A stretch of 64,000 nucleotides of DNA, from NCBI GenBank assembly GCA_000002435.2, contig CM018793.1, one strand, 5' to 3'. A program made the translations under genes and the position numbers. Source of the DNA: Giardia intestinalis. Lineage: Eukaryota. The notes below the pieces were generated by a model. That model was not told the DNA's origin. It did not search any database and saw nothing but the letters and a program-made list of their open reading frames with translations. Of this stretch, positions 6,037-17,098 are shown piece by piece; the first letter of the stretch is position 1, and every line of letters begins with the position of its first letter.

Positions 6037-8137
6037 GCGTTTACTACCTAAGTCATGCCTTCCCTCTGCATATGAACCACCAGCAGAGGAAGCCCACAAG
6101 GCCAGCCACGACAACCACCACAGCGACGGAGATACCTGCTATGGCGCCTGTGCTGAGGCCGCTTCTGTTGCCCCCGCTGGGCTTGGTGGACACGCACGCC
6201 TCACCCTCCAGCCTGTAGTCGTCCCCGCACCGGCCGCACTTGTTCTCCTCGCTGCACCTGACGCACCCGTCGATACTGCAGGCGATGCACTGGGAGCCGT
6301 CTGTGTTCGGCCTCTGGTCTTTACTGGTACAGGCCTCGCACTTGCCGCCTGCTCCACAGTGCGAGCATCCGTCAACGGTACAGGTGAAGCACCCGCTCCC
6401 AGCCAGGTTGGGCTTGTTGTTGCCGCTACACGCTGTGCATGTGGCAGGGGTCATGCCAGGAGCCTCTAGCGCTGCTGGGGCCGTGCATGCTGTGCAGCCA
6501 TATACTCCCACATATGCCTTAGCGGTGCTGCCAGCCCCTATCACTGTGCCAAGGGGGTTCTCGCAGGCCAGGACAGACTGATCAGTATTGGATGCCCCCG
6601 GGACCAGGAAGTACCGGCCGTTCTCGCTGGGGGCGGTGCACCTCCCTCCCTCGGCGGTCTTGCACATGTGGCTGCCAGGAGCCTTCGACACATCATAGCA
6701 GCCGCCCATGTACAGGAAGAACCCGGCAGCACACCGGGTGCAGACGCCGTTCTCGCAGGTGTTGTCACCCTTAGTTCCTGTGCAGACCCCATCGATGGGG
6801 AACGTGGCGGGGTCTCCGCACAGCGAGCAGTACTGGGAGAACGCCCCGGCGCTGTCAACGACGACCGCCCCGCAGGCCCCAGACGTCCCCCCGCAGGCCG
6901 TGGGGTCCTCGCAGACCTTTGTGCACTTCACCGGATTGGTTCCCTCCTTGCGATAGTTGGACTTGCAATCGGTGCATGTAGGGGTTAGGCCGCTGTTACA
7001 TTGGGAGCACCCCTCTATGCCATTGTCGGCTTTACTGTCGCAGGCGAAGCACTTACCAGCAGAGCCGGGTTGTTTCAGGAAGTACCCTGGCTTGCATGTA
7101 TCACACTTATCATTTCCAGCTTGAGTGCAGGTGGCGCAATTCTCGCCACAAGGGTCGCAGGTAACTGAGTTCCCGCTTCCCTTTTTTATATACCCAGCTA
7201 AACAGGCAGAGCATTGATCCTTGCCTGGACAGCTGCTACACCCGGCAACGCCGCCTCGCGCATCATCGCCACATAGGACACAAGCCTTTGGAGGTGTTTG
7301 ATCAATAAAATGAGTGCTAGTGCACTCTCCCTCCGCAACGCATGTCGTCGTCCCGTCTGCCGCTGTCTTCACTATCTTGCTACTGCTGCAGGTCTTACAT
7401 TGTGGTTGACTAATAGTTGCATTGTACTCACAGGTGGCACAGTCAGCTATGTCAGTAGCGCAGGCCTTGCACTTGTCTACTTTTGGATCTGCATAGCTAT
7501 CACTACCACATCCACTAGCCTCTACACACTCAGTCCCCTTCAGGAACTTCCCCTTGGGGCAGGCGGTGCACTGAGTCGGAGTAGCAGACTCACACGTCAA
7601 ACAGCCGGGTCCGCATTGCACACATGCATCGCCCTTCTTGGCGTACCCTCCTTGGCATGCAGTGCACGTGGCAGCCCCTGTACCGCCACCTGGCGCCGTG
7701 CATGTGTAGCAGCCCGCCACCCCCGTGACTCCGTCTCGCGGAGCGACGTCCGAGCAAAGCACGCACTCGTTGCCAGGGGCTACTGGGCTGGCCGGGTTCT
7801 GGAATAGATACGCGGCGCCTGCCTTGCAGGTGGTGCACACCCCCTTGTCGGCCGCCGTGCAGATCTCAGACCACTGGCTCGTCTTGTAGCACCCGCCCAT
7901 GAAGAGGAAGTACCCGTCCCCGCACTTCCCGCAGATAGTATCCGACCCCGCCAACGCGGTCCCGTCTGCCCTGGTGCACCCGGCCGCCGCGGCCTGGGGG
8001 GTGCCGGGGGGCCAGCAGAAGCCGCCGACCGGGACGCCCCCGGCCCTGCACTCGGTGCAGATCTCGGAGTACCCGACCGTCTCGCACTTGTCGGTCTGGC
8101 AGCTCGCGGCGTGGTCTCCGTCTGGCTGGCAAGGCGC
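6037..8137. repeat. 2,101-bp inverted repeat, arm A (VSP coding region plus 19 nt of 3' flank)
   Basis: This is the reverse complement of 14998-17098. Translated ORFs are identical in every frame, for example 7298..7807(+) equals 15328..15837(-). I found only two synonymous differences, near 6164 and 6185. Identity stops 19 nt past the stop codon and inside the signal-peptide codons. Confidence 0.85.
6039..6053 (-). terminator. VSP extended polyadenylation signal ACTTAGGTAGTAAAC overlapping the stop codon
   Basis: The minus strand reads TGACTTAGGTAGTAAAC. This matches the conserved VSP 3' motif ACTYAGRTAGTRAAY, which contains the Giardia poly(A) signal AGTRAAY. Confidence 0.6.
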
Positions 8138-8179
8138 CGCGAGTATGCTTGTCACAAGGTGCAATGCAATCAGCAACAT
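6053..8179 (-). CDS. vsp: variant-specific surface protein (VSP), intact copy (708 aa)
   Basis: The ATG at 8179-8177 is verified and gives the signal peptide MLLIALHLVTSILA. The protein carries dozens of CxxC motifs and two GGCY motifs (FLFMGGCY, FLYMGGCY). The C-terminus is a TM helix (ISVAVVVVVAGLVGFLCWWFI) followed by the invariant VSP tail CRGKA-stop. The 735-aa track ORF extends upstream through a non-signal N-terminal extension. Confidence 0.9.
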   Translation of the reverse strand: MLLIALHLVTSILAAPCQPDGDHAASCQTDKCETVGYSEICTECRAGGVPVGGFCWPPGTPQAAAAGCTRADGTALAGSDTICGKCGDGYFLFMGGCYKTSQWSEICTAADKGVCTTCKAGAAYLFQNPASPVAPGNECVLCSDVAPRDGVTGVAGCYTCTAPGGGTGAATCTACQGGYAKKGDACVQCGPGCLTCESATPTQCTACPKGKFLKGTECVEASGCGSDSYADPKVDKCKACATDIADCATCEYNATISQPQCKTCSSSKIVKTAADGTTTCVAEGECTSTHFIDQTPPKACVLCGDDARGGVAGCSSCPGKDQCSACLAGYIKKGSGNSVTCDPCGENCATCTQAGNDKCDTCKPGYFLKQPGSAGKCFACDSKADNGIEGCSQCNSGLTPTCTDCKSNYRKEGTNPVKCTKVCEDPTACGGTSGACGAVVVDSAGAFSQYCSLCGDPATFPIDGVCTGTKGDNTCENGVCTRCAAGFFLYMGGCYDVSKAPGSHMCKTAEGGRCTAPSENGRYFLVPGASNTDQSVLACENPLGTVIGAGSTAKAYVGVYGCTACTAPAALEAPGMTPATCTACSGNNKPNLAGSGCFTCTVDGCSHCGAGGKCEACTSKDQRPNTDGSQCIACSIDGCVRCSEENKCGRCGDDYRLEGEACVSTKPSGGNRSGLSTGAIAGISVAVVVVVAGLVGFLCWWFICRGKA

Positions 8180-14925: not shown

Positions 14926-17082
14926 GTGGCGGAGGCGGACCCTCTGAGGCGGCACCCACTGCTGTGTGTAGGAACCACGCTTGCAGTCACACTCGTAGCG
15001 CCTTGCCAGCCAGACGGAGACCACGCCGCGAGCTGCCAGACCGACAAGTGCGAGACGGTCGGGTACTCCGAGATCTGCACCGAGTGCAGGGCCGGGGGCG
15101 TCCCGGTCGGCGGCTTCTGCTGGCCCCCCGGCACCCCCCAGGCCGCGGCGGCCGGGTGCACCAGGGCAGACGGGACCGCGTTGGCGGGGTCGGATACTAT
15201 CTGCGGGAAGTGCGGGGACGGGTACTTCCTCTTCATGGGCGGGTGCTACAAGACGAGCCAGTGGTCTGAGATCTGCACGGCGGCCGACAAGGGGGTGTGC
15301 ACCACCTGCAAGGCAGGCGCCGCGTATCTATTCCAGAACCCGGCCAGCCCAGTAGCCCCTGGCAACGAGTGCGTGCTTTGCTCGGACGTCGCTCCGCGAG
15401 ACGGAGTCACGGGGGTGGCGGGCTGCTACACATGCACGGCGCCAGGTGGCGGTACAGGGGCTGCCACGTGCACTGCATGCCAAGGAGGGTACGCCAAGAA
15501 GGGCGATGCATGTGTGCAATGCGGACCCGGCTGTTTGACGTGTGAGTCTGCTACTCCGACTCAGTGCACCGCCTGCCCCAAGGGGAAGTTCCTGAAGGGG
15601 ACTGAGTGTGTAGAGGCTAGTGGATGTGGTAGTGATAGCTATGCAGATCCAAAAGTAGACAAGTGCAAGGCCTGCGCTACTGACATAGCTGACTGTGCCA
15701 CCTGTGAGTACAATGCAACTATTAGTCAACCACAATGTAAGACCTGCAGCAGTAGCAAGATAGTGAAGACAGCGGCAGACGGGACGACGACATGCGTTGC
15801 GGAGGGAGAGTGCACTAGCACTCATTTTATTGATCAAACACCTCCAAAGGCTTGTGTCCTATGTGGCGATGATGCGCGAGGCGGCGTTGCCGGGTGTAGC
15901 AGCTGTCCAGGCAAGGATCAATGCTCTGCCTGTTTAGCTGGGTATATAAAAAAGGGAAGCGGGAACTCAGTTACCTGCGACCCTTGTGGCGAGAATTGCG
16001 CCACCTGCACTCAAGCTGGAAATGATAAGTGTGATACATGCAAGCCAGGGTACTTCCTGAAACAACCCGGCTCTGCTGGTAAGTGCTTCGCCTGCGACAG
16101 TAAAGCCGACAATGGCATAGAGGGGTGCTCCCAATGTAACAGCGGCCTAACCCCTACATGCACCGATTGCAAGTCCAACTATCGCAAGGAGGGAACCAAT
16201 CCGGTGAAGTGCACAAAGGTCTGCGAGGACCCCACGGCCTGCGGGGGGACGTCTGGGGCCTGCGGGGCGGTCGTCGTTGACAGCGCCGGGGCGTTCTCCC
16301 AGTACTGCTCGCTGTGCGGAGACCCCGCCACGTTCCCCATCGATGGGGTCTGCACAGGAACTAAGGGTGACAACACCTGCGAGAACGGCGTCTGCACCCG
16401 GTGTGCTGCCGGGTTCTTCCTGTACATGGGCGGCTGCTATGATGTGTCGAAGGCTCCTGGCAGCCACATGTGCAAGACCGCCGAGGGAGGGAGGTGCACC
16501 GCCCCCAGCGAGAACGGCCGGTACTTCCTGGTCCCGGGGGCATCCAATACTGATCAGTCTGTCCTGGCCTGCGAGAACCCCCTTGGCACAGTGATAGGGG
16601 CTGGCAGCACCGCTAAGGCATATGTGGGAGTATATGGCTGCACAGCATGCACGGCCCCAGCAGCGCTAGAGGCTCCTGGCATGACCCCTGCCACATGCAC
16701 AGCGTGTAGCGGCAACAACAAGCCCAACCTGGCTGGGAGCGGGTGCTTCACCTGTACCGTTGACGGATGCTCGCACTGTGGAGCAGGCGGCAAGTGCGAG
16801 GCCTGTACCAGTAAAGACCAGAGGCCGAACACAGACGGCTCCCAGTGCATCGCCTGCAGTATCGACGGGTGCGTCAGGTGCAGCGAGGAGAACAAGTGCG
16901 GCCGGTGCGGGGACGACTACAGGCTGGAGGGTGAGGCGTGCGTGTCCACTAAGCCCAGCGGGGGCAACAGGAGCGGCCTCAGCACAGGCGCCATAGCAGG
17001 TATCTCCGTCGCTGTGGTGGTTGTCGTGGCTGGCCTTGTGGGCTTCCTCTGCTGGTGGTTCATATGCAGAGGGAAGGCATGA
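14926..17082 (+). pseudogene. vsp: second VSP copy lacking an initiator ATG (start-less or silent VSP cassette)
   Basis: From residue A(PCQPDG) onward the protein is identical to the 6053..8179 VSP. The track start at 14926 is GTG. The reading frame is open from 14800, but the first in-frame ATG is about 100 codons in (FLFMGGCY), downstream of any signal peptide. Where copy A has ATGTTGCTG (MLL), copy B has ...CCACTGCTGTGT (PLLC). Confidence 0.5.
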
Positions 17083-17098
17083 CTTAGGTAGTAAACGC
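14998..17098. repeat. 2,101-bp inverted repeat, arm B
   Basis: See arm A. The region 14998-17082 encodes the same VSP sequence from APCQPDGDHAAS to CRGKA. Confidence 0.85.
17082..17096 (+). terminator. VSP extended polyadenylation signal ACTTAGGTAGTAAAC
   Basis: The sequence reads TGACTTAGGTAGTAAAC, with the A of TGA shared with the motif. It is identical to the motif on the other repeat arm. Confidence 0.6.

What the first reader, a model, noticed from the sequence alone, without database searches (positions are those of the whole stretch)
6037..17098. Head-to-head VSP pair in a 2.1-kb near-perfect inverted repeat bracketing a 1,687-aa HCMP gene
Two variant-specific surface protein genes (6053..8179 minus, 14998..17082 plus) are reverse-complement copies over 2,101 bp. 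I saw only two synonymous differences, near 6164 and 6185. They point away from each other and enclose a 6.9-kb segment dominated by a giant high-cysteine membrane protein gene on the minus strand. Identity this high points to recent duplication or ongoing gene conversion. Such an inverted repeat can also mediate inversion of the enclosed HCMP segment. This makes it a candidate switching or recombination unit for the surface-antigen repertoire, or an assembly collapse that should be excluded.
Basis: partly seen in the sequence, partly recalled or inferred. Interest (0 to 1): 0.7.

Follow-up and report, generated by a model that had tools for sequence, protein, structure and literature searches.

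The report
Known Giardia VSP / pseudo-VSP inverted duplicate
This is a real 2.1-kb near-identical inverted repeat on Giardia WB chromosome 5, made of one working surface-antigen gene and one copy without a start codon on either side of a large cysteine-rich membrane protein gene, but the pair is already catalogued and flipping it would not change the antigen.

Summary
Arms 6037-8137 and 14998-17098 are reverse complements over 2,101 bp. They differ at two positions, both synonymous. They enclose 6,860 bp that carry a 1,687-aa EGF-like HCMP gene.

The interpretation needs correcting.
- Only the left copy is a gene. It is GL50803_00111732 (vsp72), 708 aa, with a TAATGTT initiator and a signal peptide.
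- The right copy is the annotated pseudogene GL50803_00d111732 (old vsp73/GL50803_103001). Its initiator and ATG have decayed from CAATGTT, as in isolate P15, to CACTGCT. Two copies in isolate DH share this loss.
- The arms run exactly from the end of the signal-peptide codons to the poly(A) signal. This fits gene conversion limited by homology, or recombination at family-conserved ends.
- Inverted VSP pairs are a described class (Adam 2010, Xu 2020, Rodriguez-Walker 2022). This pair was flagged head-to-head in 2010.

Assembly collapse is unlikely. The arms have distinct flanks that other assemblies also contain.

Flipping the interior would only swap 5' ends between arms that encode the same protein. 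It cannot switch the antigen.

The DH isolate joins flank A and one arm to the HCMP side, which is the flipped connectivity. It also has deletions and a mosaic HCMP, so this is suggestive only. Interest is low.

The parts
6037..8137 (-). Left arm of the inverted repeat (2,101 bp). It covers VSP codons 15-708, the stop codon and 16 nt that include the poly(A) signal AGTAAAC.
6053..8179 (-). Intact VSP gene of 708 aa, = GL50803_00111732 / XP_001707628.2 / KAE8305807.1 / vsp72. It has signal peptide MLLIALHLVTSILA, 86 Cys, 31 CXXC, 2 GGCY, a TM segment and a CRGKA tail.
8175..8181 (-). VSP initiator element TAATGTT, which contains the ATG at 8179-8177.
   Evidence: It matches the Inr column for vsp72 in Adam 2010 Additional file 1.
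8180..9414 (.). Spacer S, non-coding sequence upstream of the left VSP. It has no Pfam or VSP/HCMP/RT similarity. It has no homologue in the DH loci fetched. In P15 only its last ~150 bp (the HCMP 3' flank) has a match.
9415..14478 (-). EGF-like high cysteine membrane protein gene, 1,687 aa, = KAE8305808.1 / XP_001707627.1 / A8BEA6. It has 11.2% Cys, 28 CXC, 6 CXXC, one TM segment and a 54-aa tail that is not CRGKA.
14479..14997 (.). Junction J, the ancestral divergent HCMP-VSP intergenic region plus the decayed VSP 5' end. It is 98% identical to DH and is recognisable in P15.
14959..17082 (+). Pseudo-VSP of 2,124 nt, = GL50803_00d111732 (old vsp73 / GL50803_103001, then called as 615 aa from an internal Met). 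Its first codon is CTG where P15 has ATG, and the Inr CAATGTT has become CACTGCT.
14998..17098 (+). Right arm of the inverted repeat (2,101 bp).
18136..21117 (-). Flanking NEK kinase gene (Pkinase plus ankyrin repeats, ORF of 993 aa), convergent with the right arm. The DH isolate retains only its first 295 codons, cut at window position 20240.
4313..5494 (+). Flanking conserved 393-aa gene, convergent with the left arm. It anchors synteny with DH, P15 and short-read assemblies.

Best explanation
The window comes from chromosome 5 of Giardia intestinalis WB. The feature is one of this genome's known inverted VSP duplications, here a VSP/pseudo-VSP pair.

The right-hand unit is an old module. 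It consists of the HCMP on the minus strand, junction J, and a VSP on the plus strand, with the two genes head-to-head. DH and P15 also have this module. In assemblage A its VSP lost both initiator and start codon.

The left copy sits next to the conserved flank A. It carries a different, working 5' end: a TAATGTT initiator and the signal peptide MLLIALHLVTSILA.

The two VSP bodies have been made identical recently, by intrachromosomal gene conversion or by a recent recombination or duplication event. The identical tract stops where family-level homology stops. On the inside that is the end of the signal-peptide codons, and on the outside it is just after the poly(A) signal.

The outcome is one expressible VSP and one silent copy of identical sequence. 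The repeat is a by-product and a substrate of the homologous recombination that shapes VSP/HCMP clusters. It is not a dedicated switch.

Shown: the structure, the gene/pseudogene status, where the boundaries lie, mosaicism among paralogues, and structural differences between isolates. Inferred: conversion as the homogenising process, and the order of events.
For: - The repeat and its two synonymous differences are confirmed.
- The left copy equals WB protein KAE8305807.1 / XP_001707628.2.
- The HCMP equals KAE8305808.1.
- The right copy lacks an ATG. It is annotated GL50803_00d111732, a pVSP of 2,124 nt that begins ctgctgtgtgtagga.
- The 5' alignment shows that WB-right, two DH copies and P15 share one upstream region. 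P15 has CAATGTT with an ATG and starts MLCVGVTLAV (P0009). All three assemblage-A copies have CACTGCT.
- P15 locus L002 and DH loci L001 and L003 carry the same divergent VSP-HCMP module.
- The arm boundaries fall at codon 15 and at stop+16 nt, right after AGTAAAC.
- In 150-bp bins the WB arm resembles DH L001 in the middle and DH L003/L004 near the 3' end, so it is a recombinant mosaic.
- The HCMP is also a mosaic relative to DH, at 61-97% identity per 300 bp.
- The class is documented. Adam 2010 lists 14 identical pairs plus 5 non-identical pairs, with vsp72 and vsp73 flagged HH on chromosome 5. Xu 2020 Table 2 lists 19 pairs. Rodriguez-Walker 2022 describes partial duplicates with pVSPs and CRMPs in between.
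Against: - Gene conversion is inferred from a pattern. A very recent duplication whose ends happen to fall at these positions gives the same picture.
- The identical pairs of Adam 2010 share 139-729 bp of flank beyond the ORF, and this pair does not. Its origin may therefore differ from theirs.
- The start-less copies keep a full open reading frame in both WB and DH. dN/dS between them is 0.29. This could mean the 'pseudogene' is used in some way, or simply that it is repeatedly overwritten from working copies.
- The history of the locus could not be polarised, because DH, P15 and WB each differ.
Confidence: 0.85

Rival explanations
1. Flip-flop inversion. Homologous recombination between the 2.1-kb arms inverts the 6.9-kb HCMP segment at measurable frequency, and the two isomers coexist or alternate between lineages, with some regulatory consequence.
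For: In the DH (A2) contig AHGT01000026.1, flank A and one arm continue into junction J and the HCMP 5' end. This is the connectivity expected of the flipped isomer, and the HCMP is inverted relative to flank A. Arms of 2.1 kb at 99.9% identity are a good substrate for recombination. Nanopore work reports many inversions within Giardia isolates, with structural variants enriched for VSPs.
Against: The DH locus is not a clean flip. It lacks spacer S, the second arm, region T and two thirds of the NEK gene. Its HCMP is a mosaic with a different 3' flank. It is a 454-era assembly and could have taken the wrong exit from a collapsed repeat. An inversion would leave the VSP product unchanged, because the arms differ only at two synonymous sites, and the HCMP would keep its own promoter region J. 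The structural-variant tables held for Pollo 2020 do not mention either gene id, although those files were cut when stored. VSP switching is described as epigenetic or post-transcriptional.
Confidence: 0.1
2. Antisense or double-stranded RNA source. Read-through from the convergent flanking genes (the 393-aa gene into the left arm, NEK into the right arm), or one long transcript covering both arms, gives RNA complementary to the VSP mRNA and feeds RNAi-type silencing of this VSP.
For: Both arms are flanked by convergent genes. Strand-specific RNA-seq in clones expressing other VSPs shows antisense signal over GL50803_00111732. The values are 28-36 TPM from unique reads and 109-170 TPM when reads mapping to two loci are allowed, against sense values of 0-5 and 6-16 TPM.
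Against: Antisense TPM was normalised separately, and values of this size are ordinary across the table. About 20% of Giardia transcripts are sterile antisense. A divergent pair does not by itself produce a hairpin. Nothing here is specific to this locus, and no small-RNA data were examined.
Confidence: 0.04
3. Assembly artefact. A single VSP was duplicated or mis-joined in the long-read assembly.
For: Identical VSP pairs are known to have broken or confused Giardia assemblies. Short-read contigs stop at the outer arm boundary.
Against: The arms differ at two positions, and each has unique flanks. The A-arm junction is present in DH, P15 and three short-read assemblies. The arm-T junction is present in DH L004 over 705 bp and in DH L003 over 86 bp. 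The J-arm junction is present in DH and P15. The independent 2007 Sanger assembly already carried both copies as vsp72 and vsp73. A nanopore hybrid WB assembly places GL50803_103001 without gaps. The repeat lies inside a 4-Mb chromosome and has a 6.9-kb unique spacer.
Confidence: 0.02

Closest known systems
Inverted identical VSP pairs of G. intestinalis WB (vsp1267 prototype; Adam et al. 2010, PMC2996952; Xu et al. 2020 Table 2, PMC7000408)
   Same: Two copies of one VSP lie in opposite orientation a few kb apart on the same chromosome at about 100% identity. The head-to-head (<- ->) orientation is one of the two recorded types. The 'd' locus-tag convention is used for this pair too (GL50803_00d111732).
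   Different: One partner is a pseudogene, so the pair is absent from the lists of identical pairs; none of the 19 pairs in Xu's Table 2 is 708 aa. Identity ends inside the ORF at the 5' end and 16 nt after the stop, rather than 139-729 bp outside the ORF. The 6.86-kb spacer contains an intact HCMP gene rather than non-coding DNA or a reverse-transcriptase remnant.
Partially duplicated head-to-head VSPs with pVSP/CRMP genes between them (Rodriguez-Walker et al. 2022 preprint, e.g. GL50803_00113024 / 0050225)
   Same: Near-identical VSP sequences lie head-to-head with cysteine-rich membrane protein genes and pseudogenes in between, and are interpreted as products of duplication and divergence.
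   Different: That example is 98% identical over 85% of its length across 21 kb, with duplicated internal genes. Here the identity is 99.9% over the whole mature coding region, and the single internal HCMP is not duplicated.
Silent-copy or pseudogene reservoirs for surface-antigen gene conversion (proposed for G. muris pVSP arrays, PMC7641422 as cited; from general knowledge, trypanosome VSG, Neisseria pilS and Borrelia vls)
   Same: A copy without promoter or start codon is kept next to an expressible copy, and there are signs of sequence exchange among family members.
   Different: No antigenic difference exists between donor and expressed copy here, so no variation is generated at present. 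No DNA-based switching has been shown for Giardia VSPs.
Bacterial invertible-segment switches (Hin/Gin-type; Campylobacter fetus sap inversion), from general knowledge
   Same: An inverted repeat brackets a segment whose inversion would reconnect a single 5' expression element to a different gene body.
   Different: No recombinase gene and no short recombination sites are present. The repeats are the gene bodies themselves and are identical, so an inversion has no phenotypic output. The organism is a eukaryote that relies on general homologous recombination.

Membership tests
Giardia variant-specific surface protein (VSP, PF03302) | C-terminal TM segment followed by CRGKA | tested here: met
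   Both arms end ...GLVGFLCWWFICRGKA*. PF03302 hits have E = 2e-43 and 3e-43.
Giardia variant-specific surface protein (VSP, PF03302) | Cys-rich ectodomain with many CXXC, GGCY motifs and no CXC | tested here: met
   86 Cys (12.1%), 31 CXXC, 2 GGCY and 0 CXC. These counts are identical to those listed for vsp72.
Giardia variant-specific surface protein (VSP, PF03302) | ATG start with an N-terminal signal peptide (required by Xu 2020 and Rodriguez-Walker 2022 to call a VSP rather than a pVSP) | tested here: met
   Met for the left copy only: ATG at 8179 within TAATGTT, N-terminus MLLIALHLVTSILA|APC. The signal peptide was judged by eye and by the published annotation. SignalP was not run.
Giardia variant-specific surface protein (VSP, PF03302) | The same feature, for the right copy | tested here: not met
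   There is no in-frame ATG before residue 94. CTG occupies the position of the ATG in P15. The copy is annotated as pVSP GL50803_00d111732. The right copy is therefore a pseudo-VSP.
Inverted identical VSP pair (Adam 2010 / Xu 2020) | Two VSP copies in inverted orientation on one chromosome within a few kb | tested here: met
   The arms lie on opposite strands 6,860 bp apart. The distances in Xu's table range from 2.5 to 12.4 kb.
Inverted identical VSP pair (Adam 2010 / Xu 2020) | Both members are complete ORFs with identical sequence | tested here: not met
   The first 14 codons differ and the right copy has no start. The pair is listed as 'HH' and not 'HHIP' in Adam 2010, and it is absent from Xu's Table 2.
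Inverted identical VSP pair (Adam 2010 / Xu 2020) | Near-identity extends 139-729 bp beyond the ORFs to an abrupt divergence point | tested here: not met
   Identity stops 16 nt after the stop codon, and 42 nt inside the ORF at the 5' end.
High cysteine membrane protein (HCMP / CRMP), EGF-like group | Signal peptide, Cys-rich with CXC as well as CXXC motifs, a single C-terminal TM segment, and a cytoplasmic tail that is not CRGKA | tested here: met
   11.2% Cys, 28 CXC, 6 CXXC, a TM segment at residues 1604-1633 and a 54-aa tail ending SSVQL. There are weak EGF-family Pfam hits. [quoted passage not shown]
Programmed DNA-inversion switch | A dedicated recombinase and short specific recombination sites, with inversion changing what is expressed | tested here: not met
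   Pfam finds no recombinase-like domain in the neighbouring ORFs tested or in the spacer ORFs. The repeats are 2.1-kb gene bodies. Their products are identical, so an inversion would be silent.
Programmed DNA-inversion switch | Both orientations present within a population | not testable with these tools
   This needs raw long reads. Only an indirect hint is available, from the DH contig.

The most novel reading that the evidence does not exclude
The start-less right copy may not be mere debris. It has kept a full open reading frame in WB and in DH since before the A1/A2 split, and in WB it is sequence-identical to the expressible left copy. The pair could then act as an 'expression copy plus protected spare or donor' module. 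In this module arm-to-arm recombination (conversion and occasional inversion, as the DH connectivity hints) would repair or reshuffle the expressed VSP, or would supply antisense RNA for its silencing. That would be a DNA-level component of Giardia antigen repertoire dynamics, which is currently regarded as purely epigenetic and post-transcriptional.
Probability: 0.08. Interest if true: 0.55.

Novelty: already known. Interest (0 to 1): 0.15.

Why it matters
Little depends on this locus alone. It is one more example of how VSP and HCMP genes in Giardia are duplicated, inverted and homogenised, and both copies are already in the reference annotation. Four details are useful.

1. The arms end exactly at the signal-peptide boundary and at the poly(A) signal. 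This is a clean footprint of homology-limited exchange.
2. WB and DH share the same initiator and start-codon loss, which dates the pseudogene to before the A1/A2 split. The arms themselves are only 0.1% apart.
3. The locus differs structurally between WB, DH and P15, with breakpoints at the arm ends.
4. Reads from the two copies cannot be told apart in RNA-seq or proteomics, except over 42 nt at the 5' end and at two SNPs. Anyone quantifying GL50803_00111732 needs to account for this.

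Tried and rejected
- Exact-sequence look-ups of the WB VSP, the HCMP and P0001 returned nothing. The WB assemblies are evidently not in that index, so the paralogous WB locus (KAE8305956-958) could not be fetched.
- I first read the DH contig as 'the WB flipped isomer plus one deletion'. I rejected this as a proof of inversion. 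The DH HCMP is a mosaic at 61-97% identity, its 3' flank of about 260 bp is unrelated to spacer S, and the contig comes from a 454 assembly.
- I looked for a reverse-transcriptase or retrotransposon remnant in the spacer, as reported for other head-to-head pairs. blastx against 146 VSP/HCMP proteins and Pfam searches of the spacer ORFs found nothing. The blastx set held only VSP and HCMP proteins, so the check for a reverse-transcriptase remnant rests on the Pfam search alone.
- Rfam gave no match in the whole window. Tandem Repeats Finder found nothing in 5500-18200.
- The structural-variant supplements of Pollo 2020 mention GL50803_103001 only in gene-transfer GFF files, not in structural-variant tables. 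The files were cut when stored, so this is not conclusive.
- dN/dS between the WB arm and the start-less DH copy is 0.29. This cannot separate selection on the working WB copy from selection on the pseudogene, so I did not use it as evidence of function.
- The bacterial promoter and terminator scan was not run, because it does not apply to Giardia.

Full report
**1. The observation**

A self-comparison of 4000-20000 finds one inverted pair, 6037-8147 and 14988-17098. Base-by-base, the core is 2,101 bp (6037-8137 vs 14998-17098) with two mismatches, at 6164/16971 and 6185/16950. A 10-bp inner fringe has three more mismatches, and the sequence beyond both ends is unrelated. Both core mismatches are synonymous: Thr665 ACC/ACT and Arg672 AGA/AGG. 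The arms are 61.5% G+C, against about 47% in the left flank. The 6,860 bp between them hold a 1,687-aa ORF on the minus strand at 9415-14478.

**2. What the pieces are**

Both arms encode a cysteine-rich protein ending in a TM segment and CRGKA, and both hit Pfam VSP PF03302 at E about 1e-43.

The left copy starts at an ATG (8179) inside the VSP initiator TAATGTT. Its signal peptide is MLLIALHLVTSILA, and it is 708 aa long with 86 Cys, 31 CXXC and 2 GGCY. It is identical to the WB protein KAE8305807.1 / XP_001707628.2 / A8BEA2, on a 4,018,654-bp record.

[quoted passage not shown] It has the HCMP hallmarks: 28 CXC, one TM segment and a 54-aa tail that is not CRGKA.

The window is therefore Giardia intestinalis WB, chromosome 5 (NC_051860.1).

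**3. The right copy is not a gene**

Identity to the left copy begins at APCQPDG, directly after the signal peptide. Upstream, the frame stays open back to a GTG at 14926 but contains no ATG. The first in-frame Met is residue 94 of the protein.

I aligned five 5' regions: WB-left, WB-right, the syntenic DH copy, a paralogous DH copy and a P15 copy. WB-right, both DH copies and P15 share one upstream sequence, here called junction J. WB-left has an unrelated one.

At the start position P15 reads CAATGTT, the VSP initiator with its ATG, and its protein begins MLCVGVTLAV (P0009). All three assemblage-A copies read CACTGCT. Initiator and start codon were therefore lost by two substitutions before these copies separated, which was before the A1/A2 split.

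The reference annotation agrees. GL50803_00d111732 is a 'pVSP' of 2,124 nt that begins ctgctgtgtgtagga, which is window 14959-17082.

**4. The arm boundaries**

The inner boundary is codon 15, the end of the signal-peptide codons. The outer boundary is 16 nt past the stop codon, immediately after the poly(A) signal AGTAAAC.

The identical tract therefore coincides with the part of the gene that two VSPs with different 5' ends and different 3' flanks would have in common. This is the footprint expected of homology-limited gene conversion, or of recombination at family-conserved ends.

It differs from the published identical pairs, whose identity runs 139-729 bp beyond the ORF.

In 150-bp bins the WB arm matches the syntenic DH copy best in its middle and the DH paralogues best near its 3' end. 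The HCMP is likewise a 61-97% mosaic against DH. Exchange among family members is evident. The arms differ by 0.1%, while the WB and DH flanks differ by 2-3%. The homogenisation is therefore much younger than the A1/A2 split.

**5. Comparison with other isolates**

- **DH (A2).** Contig AHGT01000026.1 (L001) has flank A, then one start-less VSP, then J, then an HCMP in the opposite orientation relative to flank A. Next come about 260 bp of unique sequence, the first 295 codons of the NEK kinase, and the shared right flank. It lacks spacer S (8145-9451), the second arm and 17099-20239. In WB the NEK gene is intact, with a kinase domain and ankyrin repeats in a 993-aa ORF, so DH carries a deletion there.
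- **P15 (E).** The syntenic locus L005 has flank A, a single unrelated 467-aa VSP, 343 bp, then sequence homologous to window 17107 onwards with only remnants of the kinase, and no HCMP. Synteny with P15 therefore breaks at the two outer ends of the repeat unit.
- **The module elsewhere.** A divergent VSP-HCMP module like the right-hand half of the WB unit occurs in P15 (L002) and in DH (L003). A 6-kb DH contig (L004) starts exactly at the inner arm boundary and continues 705 bp into T-like sequence.
- **Short-read assemblies.** Contigs of assemblage-A isolates stop at or just inside the outer arm boundary.

The DH connectivity (flank A, arm, J) is what the flipped isomer would give. However, the extra deletions, the mosaic HCMP with a different 3' flank and the 454-era assembly make this a hint and not a demonstration.

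**6. Is it an artefact?**

This is unlikely, for five reasons.
- The arms differ at two sites.
- Each arm has unique flanks.
- Three of the four junctions recur in independent assemblies.
- The 2007 Sanger assembly already carried both copies.
- A nanopore hybrid WB assembly places GL50803_103001 cleanly.

**7. What is already known**

Adam et al. 2010 described 14 inverted pairs of identical vsp genes and 5 non-identical pairs. Their gene table lists two entries, both flagged HH:
- vsp72 = GL50803_111732: chromosome 5, TAATGTT, 708 aa, 86 Cys, 31 CXXC.
- vsp73 = GL50803_103001: chromosome 5, no Inr, 615 aa.

These figures match the left copy, and the right copy read from its internal Met.

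Xu et al. 2020 list 19 identical pairs. None is 708 aa, because they class copies without a signal peptide as pseudo-VSPs. Rodriguez-Walker et al. 2022 describe partial head-to-head duplicates with pVSPs and CRMPs between them, and their tables carry both GL50803_00111732 and GL50803_00d111732. HCMPs are known to co-localise with VSPs. The feature is therefore already catalogued.

**8. Mechanism**

The best-supported reading is that an old head-to-head HCMP-VSP module, whose VSP had lost its start, lies next to a VSP with a working 5' end. The two VSP bodies were then homogenised by intrachromosomal conversion or recombination. This leaves one expressible gene and one silent twin.

The 'switch' idea fails on logic. 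The arms encode the same protein, so inverting the interior merely moves the working 5' end from one identical body to the other. The HCMP keeps its own upstream region. No recombinase is nearby. VSP switching is reported to be epigenetic or RNA-based.

Published strand-specific RNA-seq shows low sense and ordinary antisense signal over 111732 in clones expressing other VSPs. This neither supports nor excludes a regulatory role for antisense RNA.

**9. Verdict**

The pair is already known, one partner is a pseudogene, and the structure does not work as an antigen switch. Interest is low.

The residual novel possibility is that the silent twin serves as a protected donor or as an inversion or antisense partner. 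I put this at about 8%.

Noticed in passing
window 14955-14965; L001 ~10040; L003 ~6300; L002 ~8408: The VSP next to the HCMP has the same two substitutions in WB and in two DH copies. They turn the initiator and start CAATGTT (intact in P15) into CACTGCT. The roughly 700-codon frame nevertheless stays open in WB and in DH L001.
   Followed up: partly
L001 3356-4243 vs window 18136-21117: The DH orthologue of the NEK kinase gene is cut to 295 codons exactly where homology to WB ends (window 20240). It loses all ankyrin repeats. P15 keeps only scattered remnants of this gene.
   Followed up: partly
L004 (DH contig AHGT01000153.1) position 1: A 6.1-kb DH contig begins exactly at the inner boundary of the repeat (LAAPCQ...). 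It carries a third related VSP followed by 705 bp homologous to window 17099-17803. This suggests that DH also has an unresolved multi-copy structure for this VSP subfamily.
   Followed up: partly
window 9415-14478 vs L001 4494-9554: The HCMP gene is a patchwork relative to its DH counterpart. Identity per 300 bp swings between 61% and 97%, and another WB HCMP (KAE8306013.1) is 93% identical. Recombination seems to shape the HCMPs as much as the VSPs.
   Followed up: partly
WB proteins KAE8305956-958 (outside the window): Consecutive accession numbers suggest a second HCMP-VSP unit on the same chromosome. Its VSP (P0124) is 77% identical and has the same MLLIALHL-type signal peptide. A TSS-seq paper also notes a 'gene repeat' similar to GL50803_111732 next to an EGF-like HCMP repeat on scaffold CH991767.
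   Followed up: no
window 41416-43440 (+) and 52130-54187 (+): Two more cysteine-rich membrane protein genes lie in the window. One has a PF03302 hit, 36 CXXC and a long tail that is not CRGKA. The other is EGF-like. The window is therefore a cysteine-rich gene neighbourhood.
   Followed up: partly
window 18465-18521 and 18807-18863: A 57-nt direct repeat at 88% identity, spaced 342 nt apart, lies inside the ankyrin-repeat part of the NEK gene. It is probably just the internal periodicity of the ankyrin repeats.
   Followed up: no
window 7298-7807 (+), 7899-8198 (+), 15328-15837 (-), 14880-15236 (-): Long ORFs of 99-169 aa run antisense through both VSP arms. They mirror each other because of the repeat and are most likely a by-product of G+C-rich coding sequence.
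   Followed up: no
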